DNA of 14,196 bases from the IMG/VR virus record IMGVR_UViG_3300025609_000026. One strand, written 5' to 3'. The notes below the pieces were generated by a model, which saw nothing but the letters and a program-made list of their open reading frames with translations, searched no databases and was not told the DNA's origin. The stretch comes from a virus. Positions 1-14,196 of the stretch are shown piece by piece (position 1 is the first letter of the stretch; each line of letters begins with the position of its first letter). Both the position numbers and the translations under genes were made by a program.

Positions 1-127
1 CATTACTTCCTTGGTTAAACTCAATATTATATTCCTCTTGGCTAATAAATAGATCATATTTAGGGTAGTACTCAAATAGGCAGCTATAATTACTTATACC
101 GTTCCTATTCTTTAAACATACTAATTC
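1..127. repeat. Terminal direct repeat, copy A. It is identical to 14070-14196 and marks the circular closure or assembly overlap.
   Basis: A base-by-base comparison of 1-127 with 14070-14196 shows a perfect 127/127 match running to both window ends. A single reading frame passes through the junction. Confidence 0.97.
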
Positions 128-1909
128 TATTTGTCTAGGGTTGGCCCTCTTGGCCTGGTTAATCTTTTCCCTTTTCTCTTTTATCTTGGTTTGTGAATTA
201 AATACCTCGTCATGTATTACTTGTAATTGCAGCCCCCATACTACATCTGCGGTATATTCTATACCTCCACTTTCTTTAAAACTTTCAAAGTCTATAGGGG
301 TTAAATAGTTTGTCCTATTTAAACTACTAATAACAATTACACTTATATTATAATCCCTTGATATTCTCTTTAATTCTGTTACTACGCCGTCTATTCTTTC
401 CTTGTCGCTTCTATCTGTTTCCCGTCCTGGTATGATCTGTAGGTAATCAATTATCACTACTGGGCTTACTTTATTTAATAAAATGTAATTGTGTATATAC
501 TCCCTTATACTATCTATATTAGTATTAAAGTTACCTTCTACAATACTAAACCTTTTAGATATAGGCTCATAATTAGTTATGGCCTGTTGCACCGCTGCCC
601 TTTTTCTTTCCGGTATATCATTTAATCTAATCTGTAAAGCTGATACGCCATTCTCAAAGTTATAGCCGTCTTTATTCAGTACCGTTAAACGGGCCATACT
701 TTTAGTGATTAATTCAAGGGTAGCCATTTCTAAACTAAAAAATATTATATGTTCGCCCATTTCTGCCATTTGGTCGGCCATCTGGTGTATAAAGGTTGTT
801 TTTCCTAGTGTACTTAATCCACCTATAACATATAATCCAGGGTAAATGCTTGTAATTTCATCTAGGTTTTTATATCCTGTTTTTCTATCCCTAAATTGCT
901 TATACTGTTCAATATCTGGAATTAATCTATTAAGCATATAATTATATAAACTATCTGGTCTTTTCTGTGTTTCTATTTGCTTATAGATACTTTCTTTAAA
1001 TTCTTCTTTGTTGCCTTGGATCCATTCGTTAACATCTTTATATTGTTTAGGTATCTCAATCTTATATTTACTTTCTACTTCCTGGCCCTTCTCGTCATTA
1101 TCAAAGGCGGTTAAAAACAATAAGTCATTTCTTTTATTGTCTTGTATAAAGTTTTTATAGTTCCCTACTCCGCCTATGGCTATGGCTTTTACTCCTATAC
1201 TTTCAAAACTTAAAGCGTCAAATTCGCCTTCTGTTATAACTATTGTTTCCCCTTTTGCTGCCGTCTTTAAATGGTCTATATTAAAATATACTGCGTCCCC
1301 TCTTGCCTTTAGGTACTTTATTTTAGGATCCTTTTCTATTGCTCTAGCGTTCCAGTAAACAACTTTATTATCCTTCCATACTGGCAATATGGCCCTTTTA
1401 CCAAAGTAATTATTATCTAATCTATTTACATCACCTATACATAGCTTGTATCTGTCTATAATCTCCGGGCTTATTCCTCTTTCTATAAAATACGCCTTGT
1501 CTTGGTCTGTCTGTTTATTGTATAATTCTAATATGATATTGGTATAATCTTTATAGGCATCTGCTCCCTTAACTTGCTTGGTCGGCTCTGTTTTGGGGGC
1601 ATTTTCCTTTTTTATATTTACTTTAAATTCACCTTCTGGCGTTTCCCCTGCTAGTTCTAATAATTCCTTATAGGCCGTTTCTTCGTCCATTCCTTCTACC
1701 TCTACTAAATACTTATACACGCTTCCGCCCTGGCAGCACTCACTAAAACTACTATAACTATTAGTTTCTGGATATATAGTAAAATGGTCTTTTTTCCCGC
1801 ATATTGGGCATGGGTTTATTCTTAAAACATTCCCTACCCTTTTTACCTTATATTTACTTTCAATTAAAGATAATAAGTTAACTCTTTGCTCTAAATCTGT
1901 AATCTTCAT
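1..1909 (-). CDS. Bifunctional DNA primase / replicative helicase, T7 gp4-like in architecture: zinc finger, TOPRIM, then a DnaB-family RecA-type ATPase. The gene is split by linearisation and continues at 14069 down to a stop at 14058-14056, giving 640 codons in total.
   Basis: Hand translation from ATG 1909 (SD GGAGG at 1916-1920) gives an open frame all the way to base 1.
- Start of protein: MKITDLEQRVNLLSLIESKYK...
- Zinc-finger-like segment: NPCPICGKKDHFTIY...SECCQGG
- TOPRIM segments: ETIVITEGEFDALSF and FLTAFDNDEKGQE
- Walker A: GGLSTLGKTTFIHQMA
- Walker B-like: VVIIDYLQII
- Other helicase motifs: VIVISSLNR and CLKNRNG
The gene is absent from the ORF track because it has no in-window stop. 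Confidence 0.9.
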   Translation of the reverse strand, partial: MKITDLEQRVNLLSLIESKYKVKRVGNVLRINPCPICGKKDHFTIYPETNSYSSFSECCQGGSVYKYLVEVEGMDEETAYKELLELAGETPEGEFKVNIKKENAPKTEPTKQVKGADAYKDYTNIILELYNKQTDQDKAYFIERGISPEIIDRYKLCIGDVNRLDNNYFGKRAILPVWKDNKVVYWNARAIEKDPKIKYLKARGDAVYFNIDHLKTAAKGETIVITEGEFDALSFESIGVKAIAIGGVGNYKNFIQDNKRNDLLFLTAFDNDEKGQEVESKYKIEIPKQYKDVNEWIQGNKEEFKESIYKQIETQKRPDSLYNYMLNRLIPDIEQYKQFRDRKTGYKNLDEITSIYPGLYVIGGLSTLGKTTFIHQMADQMAEMGEHIIFFSLEMATLELITKSMARLTVLNKDGYNFENGVSALQIRLNDIPERKRAAVQQAITNYEPISKRFSIVEGNFNTNIDSIREYIHNYILLNKVSPVVIIDYLQIIPGRETDRSDKERIDGVVTELKRISRDYNISVIVISSLNRTNYLTPIDFESFKESGGIEYTADVVWGLQLQVIHDEVFNSQTKIKEKREKINQAKRANPRQIELVCLKNRNGISNYSCLFEYYPKYDLFISQEEYNIEFNQGSN

Positions 1910-1991
1910 TTTATACCTCCTCTTAATCTTAAAGTTAATGTTAATGTCCAGGTTAATATTTTATTTTAACTGTTAAAGAAATAATATTAAG

Positions 1992-2025
1992 GCATGGCGG
2001 CGGCTGTCAAGCAAGCCGCCAATGC
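1992..2025. other. GC-rich imperfect hairpin in the putative origin region.
   Basis: GGCGGCT (1999-2005) pairs with AGCCGCC (2014-2020) across an 8-nt loop. An outer GCAT/ATGC pairing sits at 1992-1995 and 2022-2025. No T-run follows on either strand, so it is not a classical terminator. Confidence 0.5.
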
Positions 2026-2033
2026 TGCTACAG

Positions 2034-2060
2034 TACCTATAATACTTATAGTACTTATAG
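2034..2060. repeat. Three tandem 9-mers: TACCTATAA, TACTTATAG, TACTTATAG.
   Basis: Read directly at 2034-2042, 2043-2051 and 2052-2060. They lie between the GC hairpin and the iterons. Confidence 0.6.
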
Positions 2061-2125
2061 GGTTTTTGAGCAATCGCTGAAAGGCTTGTCCTATCTAGGT
2101 TTGAGGGCATTTTTTATTTTTTTAA

Positions 2126-2213
2126 GGTTCCCACTTATTGCACCCATGGTTCCCACTTATTGCACCCATGGTTCCCACTTATTGCACCCATGGTTCCCAC
2201 TTATTGCACCCAA
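2126..2213. repeat. Four head-to-tail 22-bp iterons (GGTTCCCACTTATTGCACCCAT). Putative replication origin.
   Basis: Exact copies lie at 2126-2147, 2148-2169 and 2170-2191. A fourth copy at 2192-2213 differs only at its last base. A T-rich tract (2108-2125) flanks them. They sit directly 3' of the 471-aa gene and upstream of the primase-helicase gene. There are no spacers, so this is not a CRISPR array. Confidence 0.85.
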
Positions 2214-2222
2214 ACAAGCGTT

Positions 2223-3638
2223 CTAATAAAATATTTCTATTCCTTTAAATGCTCGCCCCTCTTTATAAAATTCAAAGTTTTTAATGTATTTTTCTGATAC
2301 AAATTTACTCAATAACTTTTCTATTATATTCCTAACTTTTAAAGCTTTTTTCTTTGTTGGTTCTGGCTCGTTTAGTTCCTCATAAACTCTTTCAAGTAAA
2401 ATACAGTTGGATTGGTCTTTATTCTTTTTCATTACCTCTATACGCCTTATTAAATATTCTCTAATAATAATTACATCTTCTGTAGATCTAATTACATCTT
2501 TAGTATTTAATAGCTTACTAGGTACCGTTAATACTTGCCCTGATACTTGTGCATATTGATATAATATAGGTTTACTATTTAATTTATAACCTGTTACTCT
2601 TTGGCCCCCTGCTTCCAGGGTTATTTTTTTGGCTGATAAAATATAATCCTCTACTATGCAGCTATTAACATCTTTTCTATATGCTTTAGCTTCATTGGTA
2701 TAATCAATTTTAGCATAAATACGCCTTTGTTTATCTAAACTTCTAGTAATGGCTCCTACGGCTTGGGGGCTTACATATTGTTGGTCGTCTAATCCATTCA
2801 TAGCCCTATATACTTGGTCTGGTGTAAAGTTCGTGTTACCGGCTTCAAATAAACTACATACGGCATTATGGACGGTACGGTCATAAGGGGTAAACCTTTT
2901 ATTTTTATCATAAATCTGTATGTTTTCATCATCATAATTAAGGCTTACCTTGGTTAAAATTTCTTTTTTATTTTCGTTATTTATTCTTAAATTAAAGTTT
3001 TCATTACATAATACTTCGCCTTTAGCCATTGTATTCACCAACTTATTATTAGGTATAATATAGCTTTCTGGTACTATACCGTCTAACAACTCTATTTCCT
3101 GTTCCAACCCTTTGCCGTCTATCATATCCATTATTACGGATAGTTCTAATTTTTCTATGTCGGACTGTTGAAGGTTATTAATCCTATCAAGTTTTTTCTT
3201 TAGTTCCTCAATATGTTTTTTAGTTCTAATTTTATGTTTTTCTAATGTATCAATTAGTTTATCCTTATCTTGATAAAGTTCTTCATAAAATTTTAAAGTA
3301 TCTTTATGGGTATTAATCAAGTCATTAAAATAAGCTTCTGTATACTTATACTTTTCTTCTGGTGTAGGATTTTCAAGCATATTAATTAATTCTTTGGTTT
3401 CCTGTATACTGGTTTTTATAAATTCCTCTGGGCCTAATTCCTCTATCTTCTTCAATCTTAATTCATTAAATTTTAATGCACTTGCTACTGTGTTTTTAGT
3501 TATTTCCAATTTTCCTTCTTTAGTTAAGCTATTAGGTGTTATATGATCTTTGCCCTCTGCTTTTAACTTCTTTATTCTTTCGCTTCTCTCTTGGGCGTAT
3601 TCCTCGGTTATCCATGGCTCTATTTTGGGTATACTCAT
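2223..3638 (-). CDS. Hypothetical 471-aa protein. Putative iteron-binding replication initiator, with a coiled-coil-rich N-terminal half and a globular C-terminal half.
   Basis: Complete ORF with SD GGAGGGGG at 3644-3651 and a TAG stop nine bases from the iteron array. The functional call rests only on position (next to the iterons and primase-helicase). I do not recognise a family signature. Confidence 0.35.
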   Translation of the reverse strand: MSIPKIEPWITEEYAQERSERIKKLKAEGKDHITPNSLTKEGKLEITKNTVASALKFNELRLKKIEELGPEEFIKTSIQETKELINMLENPTPEEKYKYTEAYFNDLINTHKDTLKFYEELYQDKDKLIDTLEKHKIRTKKHIEELKKKLDRINNLQQSDIEKLELSVIMDMIDGKGLEQEIELLDGIVPESYIIPNNKLVNTMAKGEVLCNENFNLRINNENKKEILTKVSLNYDDENIQIYDKNKRFTPYDRTVHNAVCSLFEAGNTNFTPDQVYRAMNGLDDQQYVSPQAVGAITRSLDKQRRIYAKIDYTNEAKAYRKDVNSCIVEDYILSAKKITLEAGGQRVTGYKLNSKPILYQYAQVSGQVLTVPSKLLNTKDVIRSTEDVIIIREYLIRRIEVMKKNKDQSNCILLERVYEELNEPEPTKKKALKVRNIIEKLLSKFVSEKYIKNFEFYKEGRAFKGIEIFY

Positions 3639-3705: not shown

Positions 3706-3924
3706 TTAATCGTTTAAAAACTCTTTTACTGCTTCCTCATCAACTAGCCATTGACGGCCTATTTTTTTCCCTTTTATTCTACCTTCGCTTATATACTTTC
3801 TTACTGTCTGCGGTGTTGTATTCAGTAATTTAGATAAATCTTTTACGGTATATACTACTAGGTTACCTTTTTCTAATTGGTTACCTATATTACTGATATT
3901 ACCGTTATTACCTGTATTACTCAT
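3706..3924 (-). CDS. Small helix-turn-helix DNA-binding protein of the excisionase / AlpA / MerR-like HTH_17 type.
   Basis: 72 aa. The core YTVKDLSKLLNTTPQTVRKYISEGRIKGKKIGRQWLVDEEAVKEFL matches the classic excisionase-family HTH pattern. The N-terminus is an Asn/Gly-rich low-complexity tail. The start overlaps the upstream stop as TAATG. Confidence 0.75.
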   Translation of the reverse strand: MSNTGNNGNISNIGNQLEKGNLVVYTVKDLSKLLNTTPQTVRKYISEGRIKGKKIGRQWLVDEEAVKEFLND

Positions 3925-4208
3925 TACTTATCACCCCTTCTAATAACTTCCTTATCCTTCAAGTACTCGGCTAATGCTTGGTTTATTTCGTCTTTAATAG
4001 TAGTTCTATTGGTATAGGCTAAATCTTTCAATTTCTCCAATAGATCCTCTCTAACTATAAAAGTGGCTCTAGTCCAATTCTCTTGTAATCCTTCCTGGCT
4101 GCTTTTGGTATATTCTCTGTCTATAGTTCTTGGCCTTCCAGGGCCTTTTTTTTCTTCTTCCTCTTGTTGTCCTATCCAATCTAACGGGTTGTTTTTTATC
4201 CTACTCAC
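3924..4208 (-). CDS. Ribbon-helix-helix (CopG/ParG-like) protein. Likely the centromere-binding partner of ParA.
   Basis: 94 aa. A disordered basic/acidic N-terminus is followed by TRATFIVREDLLEKLKDLAYTNRTTIKDEINQALAEYL, a beta-strand plus two helices as in the RHH pattern. It sits immediately downstream of parA, as in type Ib partition loci. Confidence 0.6.
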   Translation of the reverse strand: MSRIKNNPLDWIGQQEEEEKKGPGRPRTIDREYTKSSQEGLQENWTRATFIVREDLLEKLKDLAYTNRTTIKDEINQALAEYLKDKEVIRRGDK

Positions 4209-4214: not shown

Positions 4215-4976
4215 TCAACTCCTTTTCAATATTTCATCTACTAAACTGTTATAGTCCTCGGCTCCGTTGCTATTAGGTTTATAACTAAATATATCCATTC
4301 CTTGGGCCGGGGCTTCTGCTAATGATACATTGTTACGGATCCTAGTATTAAATAGCTTATCTGGGAAATAAGTTTCTACATTCTCAATAACTTCTTTATA
4401 AAGTAGCTTTCTACTATCAAACATAGTTATAATAATCCCTGTAACCTCTAAATCTGGGTTTAACCTTCGCTTTACTGTTTCTATAGTCTTGATTAATTGG
4501 CTCATACCTAATAGGGCCAAATATTCTGGTTGCAGCGTGATATATATTTCTTTAGCTGCTACTAATCCATTAAGGGTTAATAGTGTTAGGCTTGGGGGGC
4601 AATCAATTAAAATATAATCATAATTGTTAACTATCGGCTCCAATACTTCTTTTAGTATGGTTTCCCTTCCTGGTGTGCTGCTTAATTCAATTTCTGCCCC
4701 GGATAGCCTAATATCTGACGGCATTACATCAAATTTCTTTTTTATAATGCAATCCTGGGCCTTAATTTCGCCTTTAAAGGCTTCATAAATGGTATTAGAT
4801 AGATTGTATGTTTCAATCCCTAAACTGGCCGTTAAACTGCCCTGTGCGTCTAAATCTATGGCTAATACTCTATAACCTCTATCTTTTAACCCGGCTGCTA
4901 TATTAATAGTGCTTGTGGTCTTTCCTGTGCCGCCTTTCTGATTTACCAGGGCTATTATTCTAGTCATTGGATCCAC
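4215..4976 (-). CDS. parA: ParA/Soj-family partition ATPase.
   Basis: 253 aa with a deviant Walker A (NQKGGTGKTTSTINIAAGL), IDLDAQGSLT, and Walker B-like YDYILIDCPPSL. The size is typical of small plasmid ParA proteins. Confidence 0.93.
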   Translation of the reverse strand: MDPMTRIIALVNQKGGTGKTTSTINIAAGLKDRGYRVLAIDLDAQGSLTASLGIETYNLSNTIYEAFKGEIKAQDCIIKKKFDVMPSDIRLSGAEIELSSTPGRETILKEVLEPIVNNYDYILIDCPPSLTLLTLNGLVAAKEIYITLQPEYLALLGMSQLIKTIETVKRRLNPDLEVTGIIITMFDSRKLLYKEVIENVETYFPDKLFNTRIRNNVSLAEAPAQGMDIFSYKPNSNGAEDYNSLVDEILKRS

Positions 4977-4982: not shown

Positions 4983-5405
4983 CTATATCATTCTTTTTCT
5001 AACAATCATACCTTCCATTAAAAACGGGTGTCCTGCTTCATGGTTATAGAAATAATAACCCTCTTTGCCGTCCCTTTGTGTATATTCAACCCTACCAAAT
5101 AGCCATTCATCATAAAAATACTCTAATGATGATCCACAACTTAAAGGGTAGCTTTCTGTACCGTCATAATACTTGATATAAAACTTATTAAGCTTCTTAT
5201 CTAAAAATAAAACGCCCTCTTTTACTTCTGCTGCTAAATACTCAATGCTTTCCGTTGTATCTTCCATTTTCTCTATAAGGTATTCTAAATTATCATAAGC
5301 TTGGCTGTTCTCTGCTCCCTCATAGTCTGCCTGGTCTAACAATTTCCTTAAATCATACATAGCCTTTTTTATAATGTCATTGGCTTGTAAATACTTATTA
5401 TCCAT
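4983..5405 (-). CDS. Hypothetical 140-aa protein. The C-terminal half resembles the small beta-rich domain annotated as DUF5348 in Firmicutes mobile elements.
   Basis: Complete ORF with SD AAAGGGG upstream. The C-terminal pattern is LSCGSSLEYFYDEWLFGRVEY...GYYF...LMEGMIVRKR. The family assignment is from memory only. Confidence 0.3.
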   Translation of the reverse strand: MDNKYLQANDIIKKAMYDLRKLLDQADYEGAENSQAYDNLEYLIEKMEDTTESIEYLAAEVKEGVLFLDKKLNKFYIKYYDGTESYPLSCGSSLEYFYDEWLFGRVEYTQRDGKEGYYFYNHEAGHPFLMEGMIVRKRMI

Positions 5406-5506: not shown

Positions 5507-6127
5507 TTATTTAACTACCTTTAGATACTTTGGTATAGGCTTATTTAACTTGGCTACCTTACCGTCTTTTATAATGAATTTATTACCCTTCTGGTCTTGG
5601 TGTGCTGTAAATGTTTCTATTCCGTTCATTTCGGCCCATTCTGTGGCTAATGAAGGGTAACCCTCTAGCTGCCTTAAATCGCTTAAATAGCCCATAAGAT
5701 TAACATTAAATTCAGTTATATCCCAATTAGTGTACTCCCATATAAACATTAAAGGATCTTCCTGCTCTGCTATTGTTTTATTAGGATCCAATGTATTAAT
5801 ATAATCCCTGGTATAGAAATAATCTTTCATACCCCATTTATGGCCCTTATATTCCTTTTCTATTGGGAATATTGTTATAAATTCGCCTGGCGTTAATAGG
5901 CCCATCATATCTTTTACTACGCTGCCAAATTGGAAATTGCTTTCTGCTTCCTCTCTAGTTAGGTATTGGGGTTTTTCTTTTAGATTAATAGCCTTTACTC
6001 CATGGAATACGGCTTGTTTTATATAGTCCTTTTTAGTAATGTCTGGGGCTGCTGCATATTGTTTAATTGCACTACAAAAAGCGTTTAAATAAAGTCCATA
6101 TTTTTTATTATCTCTTTGCCTTCTCAT
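5507..6127 (-). CDS. Hypothetical 206-aa protein.
   Basis: Complete ORF with SD AAGGGGG 7 nt upstream of ATG 6127. No motif recognised. Confidence 0.5.
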   Translation of the reverse strand: MRRQRDNKKYGLYLNAFCSAIKQYAAAPDITKKDYIKQAVFHGVKAINLKEKPQYLTREEAESNFQFGSVVKDMMGLLTPGEFITIFPIEKEYKGHKWGMKDYFYTRDYINTLDPNKTIAEQEDPLMFIWEYTNWDITEFNVNLMGYLSDLRQLEGYPSLATEWAEMNGIETFTAHQDQKGNKFIIKDGKVAKLNKPIPKYLKVVK

Positions 6128-7626: not shown

Positions 7627-9135
7627 TTAAATTCCTGTATTAGTTAAGCACCATTTTAAAATACTGTGATTATTGTAATTAATCTTTTTAGCCTTTAAAT
7701 CGGCTCCCATTTGCTGCATTGGTAAACTTAATGTCTTGGCTCCTTGAATACATCTAATCATTTTAAAGCCGTGTTGCTCCATTTCATCAACCCAATATTT
7801 AGCTGAATAACTATCATAATAGATCCATAAAGGGGTTATATTATAATCGTTTACTATCTCTAAAAACCAGTCTGTAATATCTGAATATCTAATTGTATTA
7901 CCAGTACATAGCCTTAATAGGCCCTGTTCATACCATTTATCATAAGGTATCTTATCCCGTTCTACTCTTTCATTAAAGTTATCTAATGGTAGCCAATACA
8001 TCTGGTGTATATATCGCTTTTCTGTTTTAGGATCCATTAATAATATAGTGGCTGCCGTTAAGTCGCCTGTAATTGATAGGTCGGCTCCACCTATAGCATA
8101 AGCCCCCCTAAAATCTTCTATATTAAAGGTTTCTTCATTGTTTATATCATCAAAGGATAGCCATGCACTATGGATTGTATCTCTAATATTAAAGTCTTTT
8201 ACTAATAGGCCGTTTAAATCATTAGGGTTATTCTTGGCCCTTTCAACTTTCCTAATTAGATCATCAACCTTTTTAATTGTTCCTAGTGCCGGGTTTGCCT
8301 TCTGCCATTTCTTTGGATCCTTCCATTCTTCCCTAGCGTCCAGTTCATAAAGTACGGGTAAAAAACTATCATCATTAAAAGTACCGTCTACTACATTACA
8401 AGCGTATTGGTACATATCATCAAAGATACATTCCCTAATAGTTCCTGCCGTTGTTATCATTATCATTAAAGGCTGCTGCCTTGCTGATTGTGATTGTCGC
8501 ATTACTTCGTATAGGTTTCTATCCTGTATACCGTGTAACTCGTCCATTATAACTAAATGGGCGTTTAAACCGTCTAGGGTGTTTGAGTTCTTACCTAATG
8601 ATTGGAATTTACTAAATGTTAACGGGAAATATATATCTGCCTTACGCTTTTTAATATGTTTAGTTAATTCCGGGCTTTGCTTAACCATGTTATGGACTTC
8701 CTCAAAGATTAAATTAGCCTGGTCTTTTTTAGTGGCTACGCTGAATATGTCGGCCCCATATTCTCCGTCTGCAATTAACATATATAAAGCTATCCCGGCC
8801 AATAAAGTAGATTTACCATTCTTTCTGGCTACATAAAACATACTTTCCCTATAGCGTCTTAATCCTGTATTCTTATCTATAAAACCAAATAGGGCGGATA
8901 TATAAGCCTTTTGGAATAACTCTAGTTTAACGGGTTTACCCGCCCACTCACCTTTACTATGTTTACAAAACCTTTCTATAAACTCTATAGGCTTATTGGC
9001 TTTCTGTTCATCAAAAATATATTTACCCTTGCCTTCCAGGTCTTTTATAAGCTTCTGGTACTGCTTATAAACCCTTTTAGATACTATTACCTTACCCTCT
9101 TGTATTTCGTTCCAATACTCCCTAATGTAGTTCAT
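7627..9135 (-). CDS. terL: Terminase large subunit (Terminase_1 type). This is the 502-aa portion upstream of an in-frame TAA.
   Basis: - Walker A: YVARKNGKSTLLAG
- Walker B: HLVIMDELH
- Coupling motif: MITTAGT
- Nuclease acidic motifs: AIGGADLS and YYDSYSA
- The ORF ends ...ILKWCLTNTGI at TAA 7629-7627
- The start overlaps the TerS stop as TAATG. Confidence 0.9.
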   Translation of the reverse strand: MNYIREYWNEIQEGKVIVSKRVYKQYQKLIKDLEGKGKYIFDEQKANKPIEFIERFCKHSKGEWAGKPVKLELFQKAYISALFGFIDKNTGLRRYRESMFYVARKNGKSTLLAGIALYMLIADGEYGADIFSVATKKDQANLIFEEVHNMVKQSPELTKHIKKRKADIYFPLTFSKFQSLGKNSNTLDGLNAHLVIMDELHGIQDRNLYEVMRQSQSARQQPLMIMITTAGTIRECIFDDMYQYACNVVDGTFNDDSFLPVLYELDAREEWKDPKKWQKANPALGTIKKVDDLIRKVERAKNNPNDLNGLLVKDFNIRDTIHSAWLSFDDINNEETFNIEDFRGAYAIGGADLSITGDLTAATILLMDPKTEKRYIHQMYWLPLDNFNERVERDKIPYDKWYEQGLLRLCTGNTIRYSDITDWFLEIVNDYNITPLWIYYDSYSAKYWVDEMEQHGFKMIRCIQGAKTLSLPMQQMGADLKAKKINYNNHSILKWCLTNTGI

Positions 9136-9485
9136 TAATCATCACCCTTTATAAAGTCTAGTAATGGATCCTTTGAAGGCTCATAATCTACCGGGGGTAA
9201 TAGTTCTGTTAATTGTTTAATTGTCTGGGTGTACCTTTGTAATGTTTTATTATAGCCCTGTAGTGCCGGGTGTTCTCTATAAAATTCTTGTTTACCCTGT
9301 TTAAATAGTTCTACTGGCCCGTCTTTATCTACCTGGGCCTTTAATTCTGTTAAGGTATTCTGCATAAAAACTATTTCATTAAATAGGGTGTTGGCTATTG
9401 CCTGGCGTTCTTTGGGTATTTTTTTTAACATAGCTTTAACTTTTTTCATCTCTGCGGATATATCAATATCTTTCTTTTTACTCAT
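9135..9485 (-). CDS. terS: Terminase small subunit (P27-family-like).
   Basis: 116 aa, immediately upstream of and coupled to terL. The helical protein contains ...FYREHPALQGYNKTLQRYTQTIKQLTELLP, as in small P27-type TerS. Its position after HNH is typical of HNH-dependent cos packaging modules. Confidence 0.7.
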   Translation of the reverse strand: MSKKKDIDISAEMKKVKAMLKKIPKERQAIANTLFNEIVFMQNTLTELKAQVDKDGPVELFKQGKQEFYREHPALQGYNKTLQRYTQTIKQLTELLPPVDYEPSKDPLLDFIKGDD

Positions 9486-9506
9486 ACTATCTACCCCCTA
9501 ATTTAC

Positions 9507-9550
9507 TGTTTACAAGTATTACTATTATTACATATGTTACCCTGTTTACC
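9507..9550. promoter_or_regulatory. Shared intergenic motif block upstream of terS.
   Basis: TGTTTACA at 9507-9514. The 16-mer AGTATTACTATTATTA at 9515-9530 is identical to 6653-6668. A near-palindrome TTACATATGTTA lies at 9529-9540. TGTTTACC lies at 9543-9550. Confidence 0.45.
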
Positions 9551-9644
9551 CCTCCCTTAATCCTGTGTAACCTTGGAGGGGTTTATTTAAGTTGGCACGT
9601 GGCATTGACGGGGCGGCCCTGTTTAGCTTACCTGGGGTGTATGC
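9549..9644. other. GC-rich non-coding tract between HNH and terS. Candidate cos / packaging-recognition region with a plus-oriented hairpin and T-run.
   Basis: CCCCTCC (9549-9555) pairs with GGAGGGG (9575-9581), followed by TTTATTTA. Then comes GGCACGTGGCATTGACGGGGCGGCCCTG, which contains CACGTG and GGGCGGCCC palindromic cores. It is locally far more GC-rich than its surroundings. Confidence 0.4.
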
Positions 9645-9941
9645 TTATCGTGGTATTTTAACTAGGTTTCCGTTATCATCAAACATTAAGCCATTTTGTG
9701 TAATGTTATAGTTACCGTGTAGCTTTTGGTGGCACTCATGGCATACGGCCATTAAATTACTCCAACTTAAAGTTATATTAACATCATGTATATTCTCTGG
9801 TGTGATAGGCTCTTTATGGTGGCATATTACAGCTACGCCGTTGCATACTTCACAAACATAATTCTTACTTTGCATAAAAGCATTACGGCACTTGATCCAT
9901 TCCTTACTATTGTAGAATGGTCTACTATAATCTTGGGTCAT
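9645..9941 (-). CDS. HNH endonuclease (phage packaging-associated type).
   Basis: Preferred start is ATG 9941, which overlaps the connector stop as TAATG. The 98-aa protein contains CEVCNG...CHHKEPIT...NLMAVCHECHQKLH, with the HNH and zinc-ligand cysteines. The track start at 10037 would overlap the connector gene by 97 nt. Confidence 0.85.
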   Translation of the reverse strand: MTQDYSRPFYNSKEWIKCRNAFMQSKNYVCEVCNGVAVICHHKEPITPENIHDVNITLSWSNLMAVCHECHQKLHGNYNITQNGLMFDDNGNLVKIPR

Positions 9942-10222
9942 TACTTTAATGTCCTTCCTATTGCCGTTAAGGCTACTAATAGATTGTCTATAGTTCTCTT
10001 TAATCTCTCTGTGTCTGTGCCTTGTGCATTGTACCATAGCTGCAATATAAACCCTGCTGCCGTCTGTGCTAATGGATTAATAGGATTATCATTATCCCAC
10101 CTTCTGCCTGTTGTAGCCTCCAGGTAATCTGGTATAGCTTCTAATAGTGGTAATATAATAGTGTCATTGTCTGGGCCGTCTAGCCTTAATATATCTCTTG
10201 CTTCCTGTATACTCATTAACAT
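9941..10222 (-). CDS. Head-tail connector / DNA-packaging protein (gp6-like, Phage_connect_1 type).
   Basis: 93 aa. The sequence SIQEARDILRLDGPDNDTIILPLLEAIPDYLEATTGRRW...AAGFILQLWYN fits the gp6-like connector pattern. It lies directly after the major capsid gene. Confidence 0.7.
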   Translation of the reverse strand: MLMSIQEARDILRLDGPDNDTIILPLLEAIPDYLEATTGRRWDNDNPINPLAQTAAGFILQLWYNAQGTDTERLKRTIDNLLVALTAIGRTLK

Positions 10223-10321: not shown

Positions 10322-11551
10322 TTATGCTTCTGCCTGGTATAGCTTAACAAACGCTTCTGCTACCAAAGGTTTAGTATCGGCTATAGCTAACGCTCTGTAA
10401 TCAATTAGGCCGCTCTTAAAGCTGCTTTCTCTTGATACTTCGATTAATATACCTTGTGGTATGTTATAGCCCATATAATCAAAGTTTCCTAGATATATGT
10501 CGCCGTCTGCTATGTTATCGTCAATTACTACTTCCTTACCTAAAATGTAGCCTATAGCTTCATTCTTTGGATCCTGTATAAAGATTGGTCTACCGTTTGC
10601 GTCTACTAATCCATATACGGACTTATAAAGTGTTGCGTTATTCATAGCAAATTTAGCGTTTGCTCCATAACCTCTTTTTAGTAATCCTAATGCTGCGGTA
10701 ATGTCTGTATATGCTAATCCGTCTGTAGCACTATATTCTATAGCGTTGGTGTCTTTAGTCCAGGTAATAGTTTCTAATCCTGTACCTTCTGTAGATCCTT
10801 CGCCATTAATAATACTATCTTCAATAGTTTCCATTACACTATTTACTAACTCGTCTACTAGATAGCTTTCAAATGCTGCTATACTCATTCTTTGAGTAGC
10901 TGCTGAAATGCTAAATATTTTAATTATTTCATAGCCGCCAAAACTTACATAAGCTAAATTAGCTTTTTCAGTTTCTACTGCGTCCCCTTCTGTGTGCCAT
11001 GCAGCTTTATTACTTGGTGTTGCTATTGGCACCCTAATATTTGTTGGTAGATTAAAGTTTCTACAATGTCCTAATAATCCGCCTTTCTTTCTGGCCTTGC
11101 TTATTACCTCGTCTAATGTAGCCGTTGGTAATACTGCTGCTGCGTTTGTAGTAGTATTAAAGGCATCTGCTCTTGTTTCTGTCATAGCCTGGTTAAATAC
11201 TCTTTGTTCTACTTCTGTTAACTTATGGCCTAATAAATTCTTAAAGAAGGCTGATCTATATTCTTTAGTAGCAAATATTGCTTCTCCTTCTGGCATTTCA
11301 ACTTTATTATTATCGTTGTAGTTCATACCAGTAATAGGATTAAATATATTTACCTTACTTCTTGCTGCTGCTCTAGTTTCAATATTTTCTTTAGCTTCTT
11401 TCAAGCCGTCTAATTCAATGTTAAGGCTTCTTATGTCTGCGTTTGGATCTGTGTCTATAATATTGCCTATTTCTGCGGCCCTTTTCTCAATTTCCTTAAT
11501 ATCATGGTTTCTATAATAGTTAAAAGCTTCTGCTACGCTATTAAATTTCAT
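10322..11551 (-). CDS. Major capsid protein, HK97 fold, with an N-terminal delta/scaffolding domain.
   Basis: 409 aa, positioned after the prohead protease. It has a coiled-coil N-terminal segment of about 100 aa, followed by a typical HK97-family body (...AVLPTATLDEVISKARKKGGLLGHCRNFNLPTN..., ...YLGNFDYMGYN...). The start overlaps the protease stop as TAATG. Confidence 0.88.
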   Translation of the reverse strand: MKFNSVAEAFNYYRNHDIKEIEKRAAEIGNIIDTDPNADIRSLNIELDGLKEAKENIETRAAARSKVNIFNPITGMNYNDNNKVEMPEGEAIFATKEYRSAFFKNLLGHKLTEVEQRVFNQAMTETRADAFNTTTNAAAVLPTATLDEVISKARKKGGLLGHCRNFNLPTNIRVPIATPSNKAAWHTEGDAVETEKANLAYVSFGGYEIIKIFSISAATQRMSIAAFESYLVDELVNSVMETIEDSIINGEGSTEGTGLETITWTKDTNAIEYSATDGLAYTDITAALGLLKRGYGANAKFAMNNATLYKSVYGLVDANGRPIFIQDPKNEAIGYILGKEVVIDDNIADGDIYLGNFDYMGYNIPQGILIEVSRESSFKSGLIDYRALAIADTKPLVAEAFVKLYQAEA

Positions 11552-12141
11552 TATAATACACTCCTTTTCAGTATTTGATTTACTTTAATTTTGGCTTGTA
11601 CTCTTTCCGGGCTTTCTAATTCTTTTTTTACTCCCTCTATCTGACTTCTAGCTTCTACGCTTGTTTGAGGATAGGCCGGAAATGGTACTATAGATACTTC
11701 ATAGACTTTCTCAATCTTGGTTATTGTCCTGGTATTTGTTTTAGGATCATAATGGCTACCGCCTTCTGGTACTTTAAACCCAAAACTCATACCTGTTAAG
11801 TCGCCCCGTTTTATTGCCATATAAATGCTGCGGCCTTCTTCTGTATCTGGTAACTCTGCTCTTAATGTTAACCCTGCCGGATCTAACATAAATTGCATTG
11901 TTTTTGGTACTCTAGCCAATGGAATTTTTGATAAATCGTGATTATAAAGTAATCTGCTATCTGTTAAATCTGCTCCGTCTAATGCTCCACGCTTTATAAT
12001 CTCTGTATATTCTCCAAAGGCTTCTTTAATTGTGGTAGGTTGGTCATATACTATGGCCCTACCTTCTATATAAAGGCCTTTTTCCTTTCCTACCGGATTG
12101 GTGGCCCTTATTTCACCTATTCTAATTTCCTTCATCATCAT
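11551..12141 (-). CDS. HK97-family prohead maturation protease (S78/U35).
   Basis: 196 aa with LYIEGRAIVYDQPT..., LLYNHDLSKIPLAR and GDLTGMSFGFKV motifs. It lies between the portal and capsid genes. There are three tandem ATGs, so the exact start is uncertain (12141, 12138 or 12135). Confidence 0.88.
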   Translation of the reverse strand: MMMKEIRIGEIRATNPVGKEKGLYIEGRAIVYDQPTTIKEAFGEYTEIIKRGALDGADLTDSRLLYNHDLSKIPLARVPKTMQFMLDPAGLTLRAELPDTEEGRSIYMAIKRGDLTGMSFGFKVPEGGSHYDPKTNTRTITKIEKVYEVSIVPFPAYPQTSVEARSQIEGVKKELESPERVQAKIKVNQILKRSVL

Positions 12142-13348
12142 TACCCCCTTTTGCTACCACTTGATTATTATTTTCTAATTGGTATTGGTCGGCTTTATCT
12201 GCTGATATTACATTTAAAGTCTGTAATCTTCTATCGCCGTCCTCTACTGGTGGTAAATTCAATATTTCTAATGCTTGATTTATGGTAAATAGCCCTAATG
12301 GCATTAATTCTTTTAATATGTTTGTTTTTGTGCTACTGCTACTAAACTGTAGTCTATTTGCTTCAAACATAATCATATTGCCAAAGGCTTGTTCTCTTGG
12401 GGTAAATATTTTATCTGTTAACTCTAGGCTAAACTGTAAAGCCAATGGCTCTATTACGCTTTCATAAAAGGCGTTAAATTCTTCTTCTGTATAACTACTG
12501 TTTACTATGCTTTCAGTTATTCCTAGATACTCATATACTTTCTGTTTTACTGCTGCTAATTGCTTTTCGTCTATGGCCGTTGGTTTAATCTCCAATGGTA
12601 TATATTCGGCCTTACTATCTATTGCAGCTATACCGCCGCTATTTGCTACGGTTAAATAATCATTTATAAAGGCTTCTTTTTCCTCTTTTAGTTTCTCTGG
12701 GCTTAATACCTGGTTGTATTTTAATATCCCTCTTATGGTTGCATTAGCCTTTATAGCTTGGCTCATTCCTTCGCTTTGTGTGTGTGCTAATTCAAGCGTT
12801 GGTAATATGGCCGTGTTTGTATCTCCTAATAGATCATTGTCATTAAAAAACCTTCTAATAGTGAATACATCTTCAAACGGTAATATATATGTCTTTCCCT
12901 TACCTACAATAAACTTACAAAATAACTTGCCTGTTGGATCTGCTAGGTACTCCATACTATGGGGCCTTATAGGCCATATAGCTTTTAGGTTTCCTTTCTC
13001 GTCCTTATCTAAATAAGCAAATGCGTTATTGTATAGGTAATAATGGGTTACTAGCTTATACATTAAATCATAGGCCGTCATATATGGATTGGGCCTTACT
13101 TGTAATATTCTATTTAATCCGGTATCTCCCGGCTTTCTGTTGTTCTCTAATATAATTACATGGGTACCCTTTAGCTTTCCGGCATTTCTGGCTATTGCGT
13201 CTACTGCTGCCCTATATATATCACTTTCATAGGCCCCGCCACTAAATGGTGTAAAGTATGCAGGTTTACCGCTCATTACTTCGGCTTTTACTGTTACTTG
13301 CGGTATTTCCTTCTTTCTATTAAATAACTTATCTAATATCCCGGCCAT
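12122..13348 (-). CDS. Portal protein (HK97 / Phage_portal family).
   Basis: 408 aa with SD GGGGTGAGGA upstream. The size, position and sequence character (...GGAYESDIYRAAVDAIARNAGKL..., ...MPLGLFTINQALEILNLPPVEDGD...) are typical of HK97-type portals. The acidic C-terminal tail overlaps the protease start. Confidence 0.85.
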   Translation of the reverse strand: MAGILDKLFNRKKEIPQVTVKAEVMSGKPAYFTPFSGGAYESDIYRAAVDAIARNAGKLKGTHVIILENNRKPGDTGLNRILQVRPNPYMTAYDLMYKLVTHYYLYNNAFAYLDKDEKGNLKAIWPIRPHSMEYLADPTGKLFCKFIVGKGKTYILPFEDVFTIRRFFNDNDLLGDTNTAILPTLELAHTQSEGMSQAIKANATIRGILKYNQVLSPEKLKEEKEAFINDYLTVANSGGIAAIDSKAEYIPLEIKPTAIDEKQLAAVKQKVYEYLGITESIVNSSYTEEEFNAFYESVIEPLALQFSLELTDKIFTPREQAFGNMIMFEANRLQFSSSSTKTNILKELMPLGLFTINQALEILNLPPVEDGDRRLQTLNVISADKADQYQLENNNQVVAKGGNDDEGN

Positions 13349-13359
13349 ATCCTCACCCC

Positions 13360-13572
13360 TTATATAGCAACTACGCCAATAGCTTTTATTCCTTTAGGGG
13401 TTTCTCTTACCATATACTCTACTGGTAGGCCCTCTCTTAAATCTGAAAACTCTTTAGGCTCACATACTCCGGTTGCGTGGAAAAATACTGTTTCGCCTGT
13501 TTCGTCCTCTTTGATAAATCCATATCCCTTATTTTTCACTAAATGAATTATTAATCCCTTATGCGTTTCCAT
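13360..13572 (-). CDS. Cold-shock-domain (CspA-like OB-fold) nucleic-acid-binding protein. First gene of the head operon.
   Basis: Preferred start is ATG 13572, with SD AAAGGAG and 8-nt spacing. The track start at 13623 has no SD and overlaps the predicted promoter's -10 region. The 70-aa protein has RNP1-like KGYGFI and RNP2-like VFFHA: METHKGLIIHLVKNKGYGFIKEDETGETVFFHATGV... Confidence 0.8.
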   Translation of the reverse strand: METHKGLIIHLVKNKGYGFIKEDETGETVFFHATGVCEPKEFSDLREGLPVEYMVRETPKGIKAIGVVAI

Positions 13573-13624
13573 GCTCTCTGCTCCTTTCCCACTTTTAAAT
13601 TTTCCGTTTCTACAACTACCCATT

Positions 13625-13656
13625 ATTATAATACCATAATATTATTACTTTGTAAA
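13625..13656 (-). promoter_or_regulatory. Sigma-70/SigA-type promoter for the head/packaging operon.
   Basis: On the minus strand: TTTACA (13656-13651), a 17-nt spacer, then TGG-TATTAT (-10 at 13633-28) overlapping a perfect TATAAT (13630-13625). The -35 element lies inside a copy of the TGTTTACA motif. Confidence 0.55.
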
Positions 13657-13695
13657 CATTAATTACTAATATTATTAATATTTTTATGTTTACAA
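13650..13695. promoter_or_regulatory. 10-bp inverted repeat, TTGTAAACAT ... ATGTTTACAA, bracketing the late promoter region.
   Basis: The arms lie at 13650-13659 and 13686-13695, separated by 26 bp of TAATATTATTA-type sequence. The core matches the motifs at 3664-3678, 6709-6716 and 9507-9514. Confidence 0.55.
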
Positions 13696-13705
13696 TATAA
13701 ACAAT

Positions 13706-13734
13706 AAAAAAGAACGGGCTTTATTTTCCCGTCC
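13706..13734 (-). terminator. Rho-independent terminator ending the replication operon.
   Basis: Minus-strand RNA pairs GGACGGG (13734-13728) with CCCGUUC (13718-13712). This is 7 bp including one G-U pair, followed by U6 (13711-13706). The TAA stop of the 111-aa gene lies in the loop. Confidence 0.7.
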
Positions 13735-14056
13735 TTTTAATGTAATCTTCTACATACTTGATATTTTGTATATAAAATACCCTGTCCCCTGTCATTAAGC
13801 TAATACATTCTATGCAATCCCTTAAAACTTCCTCTATTGAGGCATTAGCTGCTATTTCTTTATTTATTTTACATCTTAAACGCTCTGACTTCTTTATATT
13901 GTCCTGTAAATACCTAAATAGTTCTAGGCTTTTCTTTTCTCTCTCTATTCTGGCCGTTAAAATGGGCGTGTGCTGCTCTTTTTTATCTTCTTTAGGGGTT
14001 TCCTTGGGTGTGGTGTTATCTTCGCTAAAAAAGGCCTTCAAAGCGTCCAGGCTCAT
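13721..14056 (-). CDS. Hypothetical 111-aa protein, translationally coupled to the primase-helicase gene.
   Basis: Complete ORF. Its ATG overlaps the upstream TAA as TAATG. It has a charged, helical N-terminus and no recognisable motif. Confidence 0.5.
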   Translation of the reverse strand: MSLDALKAFFSEDNTTPKETPKEDKKEQHTPILTARIEREKKSLELFRYLQDNIKKSERLRCKINKEIAANASIEEVLRDCIECISLMTGDRVFYIQNIKYVEDYIKRTGK

Positions 14057-14196
14057 TATATCACCTTCCCATTACTTCCTTGGTTAAACTCAATATTATA
14101 TTCCTCTTGGCTAATAAATAGATCATATTTAGGGTAGTACTCAAATAGGCAGCTATAATTACTTATACCGTTCCTATTCTTTAAACATACTAATTC
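14056..14196 (-). CDS. C-terminal 46 codons plus stop of the same primase-helicase gene, seen in the duplicate copy of the junction.
   Basis: The frame continues ...YNIEFNQGSNGKVI then TAA at 14058-14056. The stop overlaps the next ATG (14056) as TAATG. Confidence 0.85.
   Translation of the reverse strand, partial: ELVCLKNRNGISNYSCLFEYYPKYDLFISQEEYNIEFNQGSNGKVI
14070..14196. repeat. Terminal direct repeat, copy B (identical to 1-127).
   Basis: Same comparison as copy A. The unit length of the circle is 14,069 bp. Confidence 0.97.

What the first reader, a model, noticed from the sequence alone, without database searches (positions are those of the whole stretch)
1..14196. Tail-less, integrase-less capsid-forming element with plasmid partition and iteron replication: a candidate plasmid-borne phage satellite
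The closed 14.07-kb circle carries a full HK97-type head and packaging set. This comprises portal, prohead protease, major capsid protein, gp6-like connector, head-closure adaptor, HNH, TerS and TerL.

I find no tail tube, tape measure, baseplate or fibre genes. I also find no holin or endolysin, no integrase and no CI/Cro-type switch.

The rest of the genome is a plasmid lifestyle kit: ParA plus an RHH partner, a putative initiator next to four 22-bp iterons, and a primase-helicase. A small AlpA/excisionase-type HTH sits just upstream of the replication genes, as in PICIs.

Described capsid-forming PICIs have a similar head-only gene set, but they are integrated islands with an integrase. Phage-plasmids, by contrast, are full-size phages. 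A head-only satellite that persists as a partitioned extrachromosomal replicon would be a distinct lifestyle.

The 14-kb size fits the small T=4 capsids used by P4 (about 11.6 kb) and SaPIs (about 15 kb).
Basis: partly seen in the sequence, partly recalled or inferred. Interest (0 to 1): 0.9.

Follow-up and report, generated by a model that had tools for sequence, protein, structure and literature searches.

The report
Capsid-making phage satellite kept as plasmid
This 14-kb DNA circle from a low-GC Gram-positive bacterium looks like a plasmid that builds its own virus heads but no tails, so it probably borrows tails from a helper phage to spread; this lifestyle was first named in 2025-26 in marine Vibrio and here appears widespread in Bacillota.

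Summary
The window is a 14,069-bp circle with a 127-bp assembly overlap. All 19 genes lie on one strand: an HK97-type head and packaging set, plus ParA, an RHH protein, an HTH_17 protein, an initiator next to four 22-bp iterons, and a primase-helicase. I found no tail, lysis or integrase gene, and no integrase remnant.

The same element recurs at ≥99.7% identity in at least five independent assemblies with different break points. It never sits on a contig longer than 20 kb.

The head module belongs to a large Bacillota cf-PICI-like lineage. In it, 61 loci carry an integrase and none shows a circular overlap. Twenty loci carry the ParA/Rep arm; none exceeds 16 kb and 10 distinct ones close as 12.6-14.7-kb circles, two of them from cultured isolates. 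The two types interleave on the capsid tree.

The best reading is an episomal capsid-forming satellite. That kind, cf-PISP, was published in 2025-26 for Vibrio only. This is therefore a new variant of a known kind, not a new lifestyle.

This copy has a nonsense mutation in TerL (E503*) and is probably packaging-defective. Helper dependence is inferred, not shown.

The parts
1..127 (.). Terminal direct overlap, identical to 14070-14196. It closes a 14,069-bp circle.
   Evidence: Independent assemblies wrap the same junction at other break points.
1..1909 (-). Primase-helicase fusion, 640 aa (CHC2 Zn-ribbon, Toprim, DnaB_C). Its last 13 nt, including the stop codon, continue across the junction at 14056-14069.
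1981..2010 (-). Best promoter-like site in the window (TTGACA-18-TATTAT, 11 of 12 matches), upstream of the primase-helicase gene.
   Evidence: This is a consensus match only.
2032..2212 (-). Putative origin. It has four perfect 22-bp iterons (TGGGTGCAATAAGTGGGAACCA, 2126-2212), an A/T run (2108-2125) and three 9-bp repeats (2032-2060).
   Evidence: Arrays of about 3-4 copies of 21-22 bp occupy the same position, downstream of the Rep gene and before the primase-helicase gene where one follows, in six relatives.
2223..3638 (-). Putative replication initiator, 471 aa. It has an N-terminal coiled coil and a conserved C-terminal region of about 290 aa that models as tandem winged helices.
   Evidence: No Pfam, NCBIfam or PDB sequence hit. 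AF2 model pLDDT 85.8. Foldseek top hits are RctB domains 2-3, E 1e-4, probability 1.0. In the elements examined that also carry a primase-helicase gene, that gene directly follows.
3706..3924 (-). HTH_17 (AlpA/excisionase-type) DNA-binding protein, 72 aa.
   Evidence: E 2.3e-13
3924..4208 (-). Ribbon-helix-helix protein, 94 aa. It is the candidate ParG-like centromere-binding partner of ParA.
   Evidence: Arc-like, 7e-6. It always follows ParA in relatives. There is no PDB sequence hit.
4215..4976 (-). ParA/Soj-type partition ATPase with a KGGTGKT Walker A motif. The true start is probably the ATG at 4967, giving 250 aa.
   Evidence: PDB ParA 7e-62, Soj 1e-50
4983..5405 (-). DUF5348 protein, 140 aa, function unknown. 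It also occurs in integrated relatives.
5507..6127 (-). Unknown 206-aa protein (phrog_6329). The model is all-helical with a small beta hairpin. It sits in the accessory or regulatory arm in relatives.
6400..6506 (-). A 27-aa very hydrophobic ORF (MIKGIILIIIALLLLPILIILEVAKKS, 6506-6423) followed by a strong terminator hairpin (6418-6400). It is specific to this lineage.
6931..7134 (-). Unknown 67-aa protein, conserved directly after Hc1 in relatives.
7146..7481 (-). Head-closure protein Hc1, 111 aa from the ATG at 7481. The mechanical ORF extends to 7520.
7495..9135 (-). Large terminase reading frame of 546 codons, interrupted in this copy by TAA at 7629-7627 (E503*). The product is 502 aa.
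9135..9485 (-). Small terminase candidate, 116 aa. Its stop overlaps the TerL start.
9486..9644 (-). HNH-TerS spacer and candidate cos or terminase-recognition region. It holds the GC-rich motif CCGTCAATGCCACGTGCC and the inverted repeat CCCCTCC/GGGAGGGG.
   Evidence: Assigning function here is inference.
9645..9938 (-). HNH endonuclease, about 98 aa.
9941..10222 (-). Head-tail adaptor Ad1 (gp6-like), 93 aa.
10322..11551 (-). HK97-fold major capsid protein, 409 aa.
11551..12141 (-). Prohead serine protease (S78).
12122..13348 (-). Portal protein.
13360..13623 (-). Cold-shock-domain protein, 87 aa. It lies upstream of the portal gene in both plasmid-type and integrated relatives.
13721..14056 (-). 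Unknown 111-aa protein. Its start overlaps the primase-helicase stop, and it travels with the replication arm.

Best explanation
The window is a complete 14,069-bp episomal capsid-forming phage satellite, a 'satellite-plasmid', from a low-GC Bacillota host that is probably clostridial.

Vertical life (inferred from gene content and origin anatomy). The 471-aa initiator binds the four iterons just downstream of its gene. It recruits the adjacent primase-DnaB helicase for theta-type replication. ParA and the small RHH protein partition the copies.

Horizontal life (inferred by homology with cf-PICIs).
1. When a helper phage replicates in the cell, the element makes its own small HK97-type proheads from portal, S78 protease and MCP.
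2. It packages unit-length genomes with HNH, TerS and TerL from a site in the HNH-TerS spacer.
3. It seals the heads with Ad1 and Hc1.
4. It depends on the helper phage for pre-assembled tails and for lysis.

The element belongs to a large Bacillota cf-PICI-like lineage. In that lineage one conserved head module is combined either with an integrase-repressor-primase arm (chromosomal islands) or with a ParA-RHH-HTH17-Rep-iteron-primase/helicase arm (circles of 12.6-14.7 kb).

The sequenced copy carries TerL E503*. This removes the conserved C-terminal RIDG segment of the nuclease domain. This clone is therefore probably packaging-defective and lives as a plain plasmid.
For: Circularity.
- There is an exact 127-bp overlap.
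- At least five independent assemblies at 99.7% identity or more are each longer than one unit or have their own overlaps (201 and 77 bp), with different break points.
- The exact MCP occurs in 43 data blocks, and none has a contig longer than 20 kb. The integrated C. botulinum relative is mostly on contigs of 20-200 kb or more than 1 Mb.

Gene content.

Replication module.
- Rep fold search gives RctB domains 2-3.
- Iteron arrays of 21-22 bp follow the Rep gene in the window and in six relatives, upstream of a primase-helicase gene where one is present.

Family survey.
- Twenty ParA-type loci were found, none longer than 16 kb. Ten distinct ones have terminal overlaps of 55-127 bp.
- Two of these come from cultured isolates: C. 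tetani QMBC01000022 and Bacillus ectoiniformans DSM 28970.
- Sixty-one integrase-type loci were found. None has a terminal overlap, and 30 are longer than 16 kb.
- The nearest relatives (MCP 74-75% identity) are plasmid-type. The next (71%) is an island next to guaA.

Capsid lineage. The MCP is far from phages: the best of 50,697 phage records is 31% identical. It is absent from 72,556 plasmid records.

Selection. Head genes show 60 synonymous against 19 nonsynonymous variant codons within the lineage.

Precedent. The concept exists as cf-PISP and cf-PICI.
Against: - No particle, helper phage, induction signal or copy-number data exist.
- No Stl- or CI-type regulator was found, so how the head genes are switched on is unknown.
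- No centromere repeats were identified.
- Rep has no sequence match to any known initiator family. The fold match is moderate (TM 0.46 on the target).
- No DnaA boxes lie near the iterons.
- The TerL nonsense allele is present in this copy and in three other assemblies.
- The host is unidentified.
- A circular assembly cannot distinguish a plasmid from a replicating or packaged concatemer.
Confidence: 0.78

Rival explanations
1. The circle is the excised, replicating or packaged form of an ordinary integrative island. It uses a recombinase supplied in trans, for example by the host Xer system or by the helper phage.
For: Most relatives of the head module are integrated islands with an integrase. 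Circular assemblies also arise from excised or terminally redundant DNA.
Against: - There is no integrase and no remnant of one.
- A ParA plus RHH partition pair and an iteron-type Rep have no role in an island.
- The element is never on a contig longer than 20 kb in 43 data blocks.
- ParA-type and integrase-type arms are mutually exclusive across 81 typed loci.
- In two isolate genomes the relative is a separate closed contig.
Confidence: 0.07
2. It is a small plasmid that captured a phage or satellite head module that no longer functions. On this view it is a decaying remnant with no particle-mediated transfer.
For: TerL E503* occurs in this copy and in three other assemblies. It removes the RIDG segment that aligns with the C-terminal part of HK97 TerL.
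Against: - Sister copies differing by a single base have intact TerL.
- The eight-gene head module keeps its order and intact reading frames in about 150 loci, down to about 45% MCP identity.
- Polymorphism within the lineage is mostly synonymous, 60 against 19.
Confidence: 0.1
3. It is an autonomous tail-less virus or a gene-transfer-agent-like particle that needs no helper phage.
For: It encodes every head and packaging function and its own replication.
Against: - Ad1 and Hc1 are the head-side parts of the head-to-tail joint of sipho- and myoviruses (family knowledge). The nearest phage Hc1 homologues are in Geobacillus siphoviruses.
- There are no lysis genes.
- Homologous cf-PICIs were shown experimentally to use helper tails.
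Confidence: 0.04
4. The closure is an assembly artefact, and the real molecule continues into tail, lysis or integrase genes.
For: A 127-bp terminal repeat equals a common assembler k-mer size.
Against: Five or more assemblies made with different assemblers and k values (overlaps of 201 and 77 bp, plus MEGAHIT k141 contigs) give the same 14.07-kb unit with different break points and no extra sequence.
Confidence: 0.01

Closest known systems
[quoted passage not shown]
   Same: Both are small extrachromosomal circles (15.8 kb there, 14.07 kb here). Both carry a cf-PICI-type head and packaging set, parA and a rep gene, and no tail genes or integrase. Both have an MCP of Pfam PF05065.
   Different: - Host phylum differs: Bacillota here, Gammaproteobacteria there. 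Those authors found none outside Vibrio.
- The replication module differs: here an RctB-like-fold Rep, iterons and a primase-DnaB helicase, with no ProQ/FinO gene.
- No Stl-like regulator was found here.
- The small tyrosine recombinase inside the head module is absent from this copy, although many Bacillota relatives have one.
[quoted passage not shown]
   Same: The gene set matches: HNH, TerS, TerL, portal, protease, capsid, adaptor and connector, with an AlpA-type HTH and a primase, and no tails or holins. Typical size also matches (median 14 kb and 19 proteins). The capsid lineage is distinct from phages. Integrated Bacillota relatives share 57-71% MCP identity and the same gene order.
   Different: There is no integrase and no chromosomal site. 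A partition system and an iteron initiator take their place. Of 969 cfPICIs in that survey, all but three were chromosomal.
Satellite P4 in its plasmid state
   Same: Both are satellites that can persist as multicopy plasmids using their own primase-helicase.
   Different: P4 encodes an integrase and no capsid, portal or terminase genes. It remodels helper P2 capsids instead.
Phage-plasmids (P1, N15, SSU5 types)
   Same: Both have ParA-type partition and plasmid replication on a molecule that also encodes virion genes.
   Different: Phage-plasmids are complete phages of 40 kb or more, with tail and lysis genes. This element has neither.
Iteron-controlled theta replicons (RepE/Pi/RepA; RctB domains 2-3)
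   Same: Tandem direct repeats lie next to the rep gene. The predicted fold is tandem winged-helix, with RctB domains 2-3 as the best structural match.
   Different: There is no sequence similarity to Rep_3 or RctB. The protein has a long N-terminal coiled coil and is paired with a dedicated primase-helicase. No DnaA boxes were found.

Membership tests
cf-PICI | Encodes its own capsid, portal, protease, head-tail adaptor and connector, HNH, TerS and TerL. | tested here: met
   TerL carries a premature stop in this copy only.
cf-PICI | Lacks tail and holin or lysin genes. | tested here: met
   Pfam, PHROG, NCBIfam and PADLOC scans of all ORFs. Transmembrane scan. AF2 and Foldseek on the largest unknown ORF.
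cf-PICI | Has an integrase and is integrated in the chromosome as an island. | tested here: not met
   No integrase hit or remnant. The element is never on a contig longer than 20 kb.
cf-PICI | Capsid lineage is separate from bona fide phages and clusters with satellites. | tested here: met
   The best phage hit is 31% identical. Integrated island relatives are 57-71% identical.
cf-PICI | Is induced by a helper phage and forms small capsids joined to helper tails. | not testable with these tools
   This needs induction, transfer and electron-microscopy experiments.
cf-PISP (satellite-plasmid) | Assembles as a small extrachromosomal circle. | tested here: met
   Relatives.
cf-PISP (satellite-plasmid) | Has plasmid maintenance genes (parA and a rep gene) in place of an integrase. 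| tested here: met
   ParA. Rep fold and iterons.
cf-PISP (satellite-plasmid) | Has an Stl-like regulator that controls induction. | tested here: not met
   No HTH_3/XRE or Stl-like protein in the window. Some relatives have an HTH_3 gene.
cf-PISP (satellite-plasmid) | Shares sequence ancestry with the Vibrio TG54 lineage. | not tested
Its authors report no relatives outside Vibrio. Independent origin is likely.
Phage-plasmid | Is a complete phage genome with tail and lysis modules on a plasmid replicon. | tested here: not met
   The element is 14 kb. Its unannotated coding capacity is about 570 aa in five small ORFs.
Iteron-type plasmid initiators | Direct repeats lie next to rep, and repeat sequence varies with the Rep variant. 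| tested here: met
   arrays of about 3-4 copies of 21-22 bp directly after the Rep-family gene in six relatives, with different sequences in different elements.
Iteron-type plasmid initiators | Shows sequence membership of a known Rep family (Rep_3, RepA_N, RctB). | tested here: not met
   No Pfam, NCBIfam or PDB sequence hit. Only fold similarity was found.
Type Ib partition (ParA plus an RHH centromere-binding protein) | Has a short deviant-Walker-A ParA followed by a small RHH protein, plus centromere repeats. | tested here: inconclusive
   ParA is strong. RHH rests on a PHROG match only. No centromere repeat array was identified.

The most novel reading that the evidence does not exclude
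Satellite-plasmids are not a Vibrio curiosity. They are a common and repeatedly evolved lifestyle in Bacillota.

One capsid-forming head module swaps freely between an integrase arm and a ParA/Rep/primase-helicase arm, with at least five switches on the capsid tree. There also appears to be a third circular form with a prim-pol-type replicase.

A TerL-null clone that is otherwise identical across several metagenomes would then show that these elements can persist and spread as plain plasmids once their capsid route is lost. That would make them a live intermediate between satellites and plasmids.
Probability: 0.45. Interest if true: 0.7.

Novelty: new variant of a known kind. Interest (0 to 1): 0.55.

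Why it matters
Phage satellites have been treated, and searched for, as chromosomal islands anchored by an integrase. The SatelliteFinder survey discarded the elements without an identified integrase when it extracted and characterised cfPICI genomes. Episomal members are therefore likely undercounted.

This survey shows a coherent and widespread plasmid-borne branch of capsid-forming satellites in Gram-positive anaerobes and bacilli. The hosts include a C. tetani isolate and a culture-collection Bacillus. That extends the new satellite-plasmid class across phyla and suggests modular switching between integrated and episomal life.

It also supplies tractable strains in which helper dependence, copy number and transfer can be tested.

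Separately, it defines a previously unannotated replication cassette: an RctB-like-fold initiator, 21-22-bp iterons and a primase-DnaB helicase. Several kinds of Bacillota mobile element use it.

Tried and rejected
- Megablast of the whole circle against PLSDB plasmids and GenBank phages found no match.
- The Rfam scan of the window at E ≤ 0.1 found nothing.
- PADLOC found no defence system. The only hits were weak cold-shock-domain and HTH matches.
- Rep471 against PDB by sequence, both as a single sequence and as a profile, gave only noise.
- The RHH protein against PDB by sequence gave nothing.
- The 206-aa unknown gave a confident AF2 model but no significant fold match in PDB or BFVD. Its function stays unknown. 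It is helical, so it is not a tail tube, lysin or recombinase.
- DnaA boxes were no more frequent than chance, and none lies at the origin.
- Folding the HNH-TerS spacer gave no unusual stability. The cos assignment rests only on position and on conserved motifs.
- The 27-aa hydrophobic peptide is not conserved in relatives. I do not treat it as a core part or as a holin.
- Host identification failed. Cluster names and a literature search on the sample accessions gave nothing.
- The distant Rep homologue on the Anaerotruncus plasmid has no obvious iteron array.
- The C. tetani comparative genomics paper does not mention the 13.6-kb element.

Full report
**1. What is in the sequence**

The window is a 14,069-bp unit plus an exact 127-bp repeat of its start. 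GC content is about 34%, and strand skew is uniform. All credible genes lie on the - strand.

Read on that strand, the gene order is as follows.
- A 111-aa unknown, then a cold-shock-domain (CSD) protein.
- Portal, S78 prohead protease and an HK97-type major capsid protein (MCP).
- The Ad1/gp6-like adaptor and an HNH endonuclease.
- A 159-bp spacer.
- A TerS candidate and TerL.
- Head-closure protein Hc1, then a 67-aa unknown.
- An 800-bp region with few genes.
- A 206-aa unknown and a DUF5348 protein.
- ParA, a 94-aa ribbon-helix-helix (RHH) protein and a 72-aa HTH_17 protein.
- A 471-aa unknown, four perfect 22-bp iterons, and a 640-aa primase-DnaB helicase that crosses the junction.
.

The tool list of ORFs omits the primase-helicase only because it runs off the window end. 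It appears once the circle is closed.

No ORF hits an integrase, recombinase, tail, holin or lysin family in Pfam, PHROGs, NCBIfam or PADLOC. Six-frame searches with integrases, small recombinases and repressors taken from relatives find no remnant. The only strongly hydrophobic ORF on the coding strand is a 27-aa peptide.

TerL is interrupted at codon 503 by TAA. Copies from other samples, one of which differs from the window at only this base over 14.1 kb, have GAA there and a 546-aa TerL that abuts Hc1.

**2. Is the circle real?**

The exact capsid protein occurs in 43 blocks of the public collection. Contig-length classes are 2, 29, 7 and 5 blocks for <2, 2-5, 5-10 and 10-20 kb, with none above 20 kb.

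Five full-length contigs from different projects match the window at 99.7-100% identity. They are a MAG in GCA_029777045.1, JGI 3300010327, ERZ27257421, ERZ746980 and the window itself. Each starts at a different gene, and each either has its own terminal overlap (201 or 77 bp) or runs past one unit length. No contig continues into other DNA.

As a control, an integrated relative in C. botulinum is found mostly on contigs of 20-200 kb or more than 1 Mb. An assembly artefact is excluded. A circle, or a head-to-tail concatemer, of 14.07 kb is the real molecule.

**3. The family it belongs to**

The MCP has more than 2,000 homologues. A large share of the top hits sit on contigs of 12.5-14.8 kb.

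I scanned one genome per species and IMG/VR, then typed each locus with reference proteins. A strictly conserved module appears in about 150 loci, almost all from Bacillota:

portal - protease - MCP - Ad1 - (small Tyr recombinase) - HNH - TerS - TerL - Hc1

The seemingly odd order in the window is therefore the family norm.

The loci split by the arm attached to this module.

| Arm | Loci | Longer than 16 kb | Terminal overlap ≥50 bp |
|---|---|---|---|
| Large integrase (often with a CI-like repressor and a primase) | 61 | 30 | none |
| ParA-RHH-HTH17-Rep-iterons-primase/helicase | 20 | none | 10 distinct loci, 55-127 bp |

- The integrase-type loci are ordinary cf-PICI-type islands. Examples are C. 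botulinum and an island next to guaA.
- The ParA-type circles have unit lengths of 12.6-14.7 kb. Two of the closed circles come from cultured isolates: C. tetani QMBC01000022 (13.5 kb) and Bacillus ectoiniformans DSM 28970 (14.2 kb).
- The window's nearest relatives (MCP 74-75% identity) have the plasmid arm. The next nearest (71%) is the guaA island.
- On a neighbour-joining capsid tree the two types interleave at five or more places. The arms are evidently exchanged. This is a distance tree and is indicative only.

Against 50,697 phage records the MCP reaches only 31% identity. It has no hit in 72,556 PLSDB plasmids. This matches the reported separation of satellite capsids from phage capsids.

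**4. The plasmid arm**

ParA is a clear Soj/ParA ATPase (PDB ParA 7e-62). It is always followed by the small RHH protein, which is the arrangement of type Ib partition systems. I did not find a centromere.

The 471-aa protein has no sequence-family match. About 350 homologues share its C-terminal 62%. An AF2 model has pLDDT 85.8. Its best structural matches are RctB domains 2-3 (E 1e-4, probability 1.0, TM 0.46 on the target). By established knowledge, that is the tandem winged-helix unit shared with iteron-plasmid initiators.

In the elements checked that carry a primase-helicase gene, this protein's gene is followed directly by about 3-4 copies of a 21-22-bp repeat and then by a Toprim-DnaB primase-helicase. 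The repeat sequence differs between elements. This holds in the plasmid-type satellites and also in unrelated integrated elements of Neobacillus and Clostridium sp. FP2. A distant homologue is the only candidate Rep I saw in the 15-kb region examined of a 52-kb Anaerotruncus plasmid.

In the window the iterons are followed by an A/T run, three 9-bp repeats and the best promoter match in the window.

Origin and initiator function is thus well supported by context and fold, but it is not demonstrated.

**5. The remaining unknown ORFs**

- The 206-aa protein (phrog_6329) models confidently (pLDDT 88.7) as a helical bundle with a small hairpin. It matches nothing in PDB or BFVD. In integrated relatives it lies in the regulatory arm, not among the head genes.
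- The 111-aa protein is translationally coupled to the primase-helicase gene and travels with it.
- DUF5348 and the CSD protein occur in both island and plasmid forms.

None of these looks like a tail, lysis or recombination protein. Together they are far too small to encode a tail.

**6. Are the head genes alive?**

Within the window's own lineage the head genes show 60 synonymous and 19 nonsynonymous variant codons, plus the one stop. That pattern indicates purifying selection.

TerL aligns with the solved HK97 terminase (6Z6D, E 2.5e-42). The 44 residues lost in this copy include the conserved RIDG segment near the end of the nuclease domain. I infer that cos cleavage or packaging is impaired.

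The null allele is present in four assemblies (the window plus three others) that are otherwise 99.98-100% identical. This fits persistence by plasmid inheritance. Complementation by co-resident intact copies cannot be excluded.

**7. Packaging site**

By analogy with HK97-type cos phages, the HNH gene and TerS flank the cos site (established knowledge). The 159-bp spacer is the most GC-rich intergenic stretch: 44% overall, with a 30-nt window at 70%.

It shares the motif CCGTCAATGCCACGTGCC with one plasmid-type relative and one integrated relative. It also contains the inverted repeat CCCCTCC/GGGAGGGG, which recurs upstream of TerS in distant relatives. This is a candidate site only.

**8. 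Comparison with what is known**

cf-PICIs are defined by exactly this head and packaging set without tails, together with an integrase. They have a median of 14 kb and 19 proteins. All but three of 969 surveyed were chromosomal, and elements without an integrase were set aside.

In 2025-26 a Vibrio crassostreae study described 15.8-kb circles with the cf-PICI head set, parA, repA and no integrase. It named them cf-PISP and reported none outside Vibrio. No other paper in the searchable library uses the term.

The window works like a cf-PISP and meets its structural criteria. It differs in four ways:
- host phylum;
- capsid lineage;
- replication module;
- lack of an identifiable Stl-type regulator.

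It fails the integrase criterion for cf-PICI and the completeness criterion for phage-plasmids.

**9. Verdict**

The lifestyle is no longer unknown, however. I rate it a new variant of a known kind.

The main added value is fourfold:
- the demonstration that this is a widespread branch in Bacillota;
- the evidence that it arose by repeated arm exchange;
- the availability of culturable hosts;
- a newly delineated Rep-iteron-primase/helicase cassette.

Helper dependence, induction and particle formation remain inferences from homology.

Noticed in passing
window 7627-7629 (- strand), within TerL 7495-9135: There is a nonsense codon (GAA to TAA, E503*) in TerL. It removes 44 C-terminal residues, including a conserved RIDG motif. 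The same allele is in three other assemblies (L002, L003/L012, L006), while L001, L005, L009 and L011 are intact.
   Followed up: yes
window 6400-6506 (- strand): A 27-aa extremely hydrophobic ORF (MIKGIILIIIALLLLPILIILEVAKKS) is followed by the strongest terminator hairpin in the window. It resembles a type I toxin, which would suit a plasmid, but it is absent from relatives and has no Rfam match.
   Followed up: partly
L014 6133-6684; L015 11668-12210; L029 6388-6960; L049, L051 and others: Many relatives, both island and plasmid types, carry a gene of about 180 aa with a tyrosine-recombinase domain inside the head module, between Ad1 and TerS. The window lacks it. The Vibrio cf-PISP paper reports a similarly placed recombinase. 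It may resolve multimers.
   Followed up: partly
L074 (Clostridium sp. K13, 12,653 bp, 77-bp overlap) and L117 (13,920 bp, 99-bp overlap): This is a third circular form of the same head module. It has neither ParA nor an integrase, but carries a 404-aa protein with an RLPGTxN motif of prim-pol type.
   Followed up: partly
L081 10001-13043 (Neobacillus novalis chromosome); L083 10001-13086 (Clostridium sp. FP2 chromosome); L169 6707-7972 (Anaerotruncus plasmid NZ_CP094683.1): The Rep-iteron-primase/helicase cassette also occurs in integrated elements that have no capsid genes. A 28%-identical Rep homologue sits on a 52-kb plasmid with no typed replicon. This may be an unrecognised Bacillota replication-initiator family.
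   Followed up: partly
window 9486-9644: The HNH-TerS spacer is GC-rich. Its motif CCGTCAATGCCACGTGCC is shared with L086 and L088, and its CCCCTCC/GGGAGGGG inverted repeat recurs in distant relatives. It is a candidate cos or terminase-binding site.
   Followed up: partly
window 13360-13623; L085, L086, L088: A cold-shock-domain gene lies immediately upstream of the portal gene and is conserved in plasmid-type and integrated relatives. It gives weak hits to the retron Se72 effector and PADLOC CSD_V models. It may act in late-gene antitermination or as an accessory function.
   Followed up: no
L056-L062 ('uncultured Campylobacter' MAGs) and L046 ('Bacteroidaceae' bin): The same head module, at 51-56% MCP identity, is assigned to non-Bacillota bins. 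This is either cross-phylum spread or mis-binning.
   Followed up: no
L004 151-1314; window 2223-3638: The N-terminal coiled-coil third of Rep is highly variable. There is a 387-aa variant in an otherwise 98-99% identical element, and homologues share only the C-terminal 62%.
   Followed up: no
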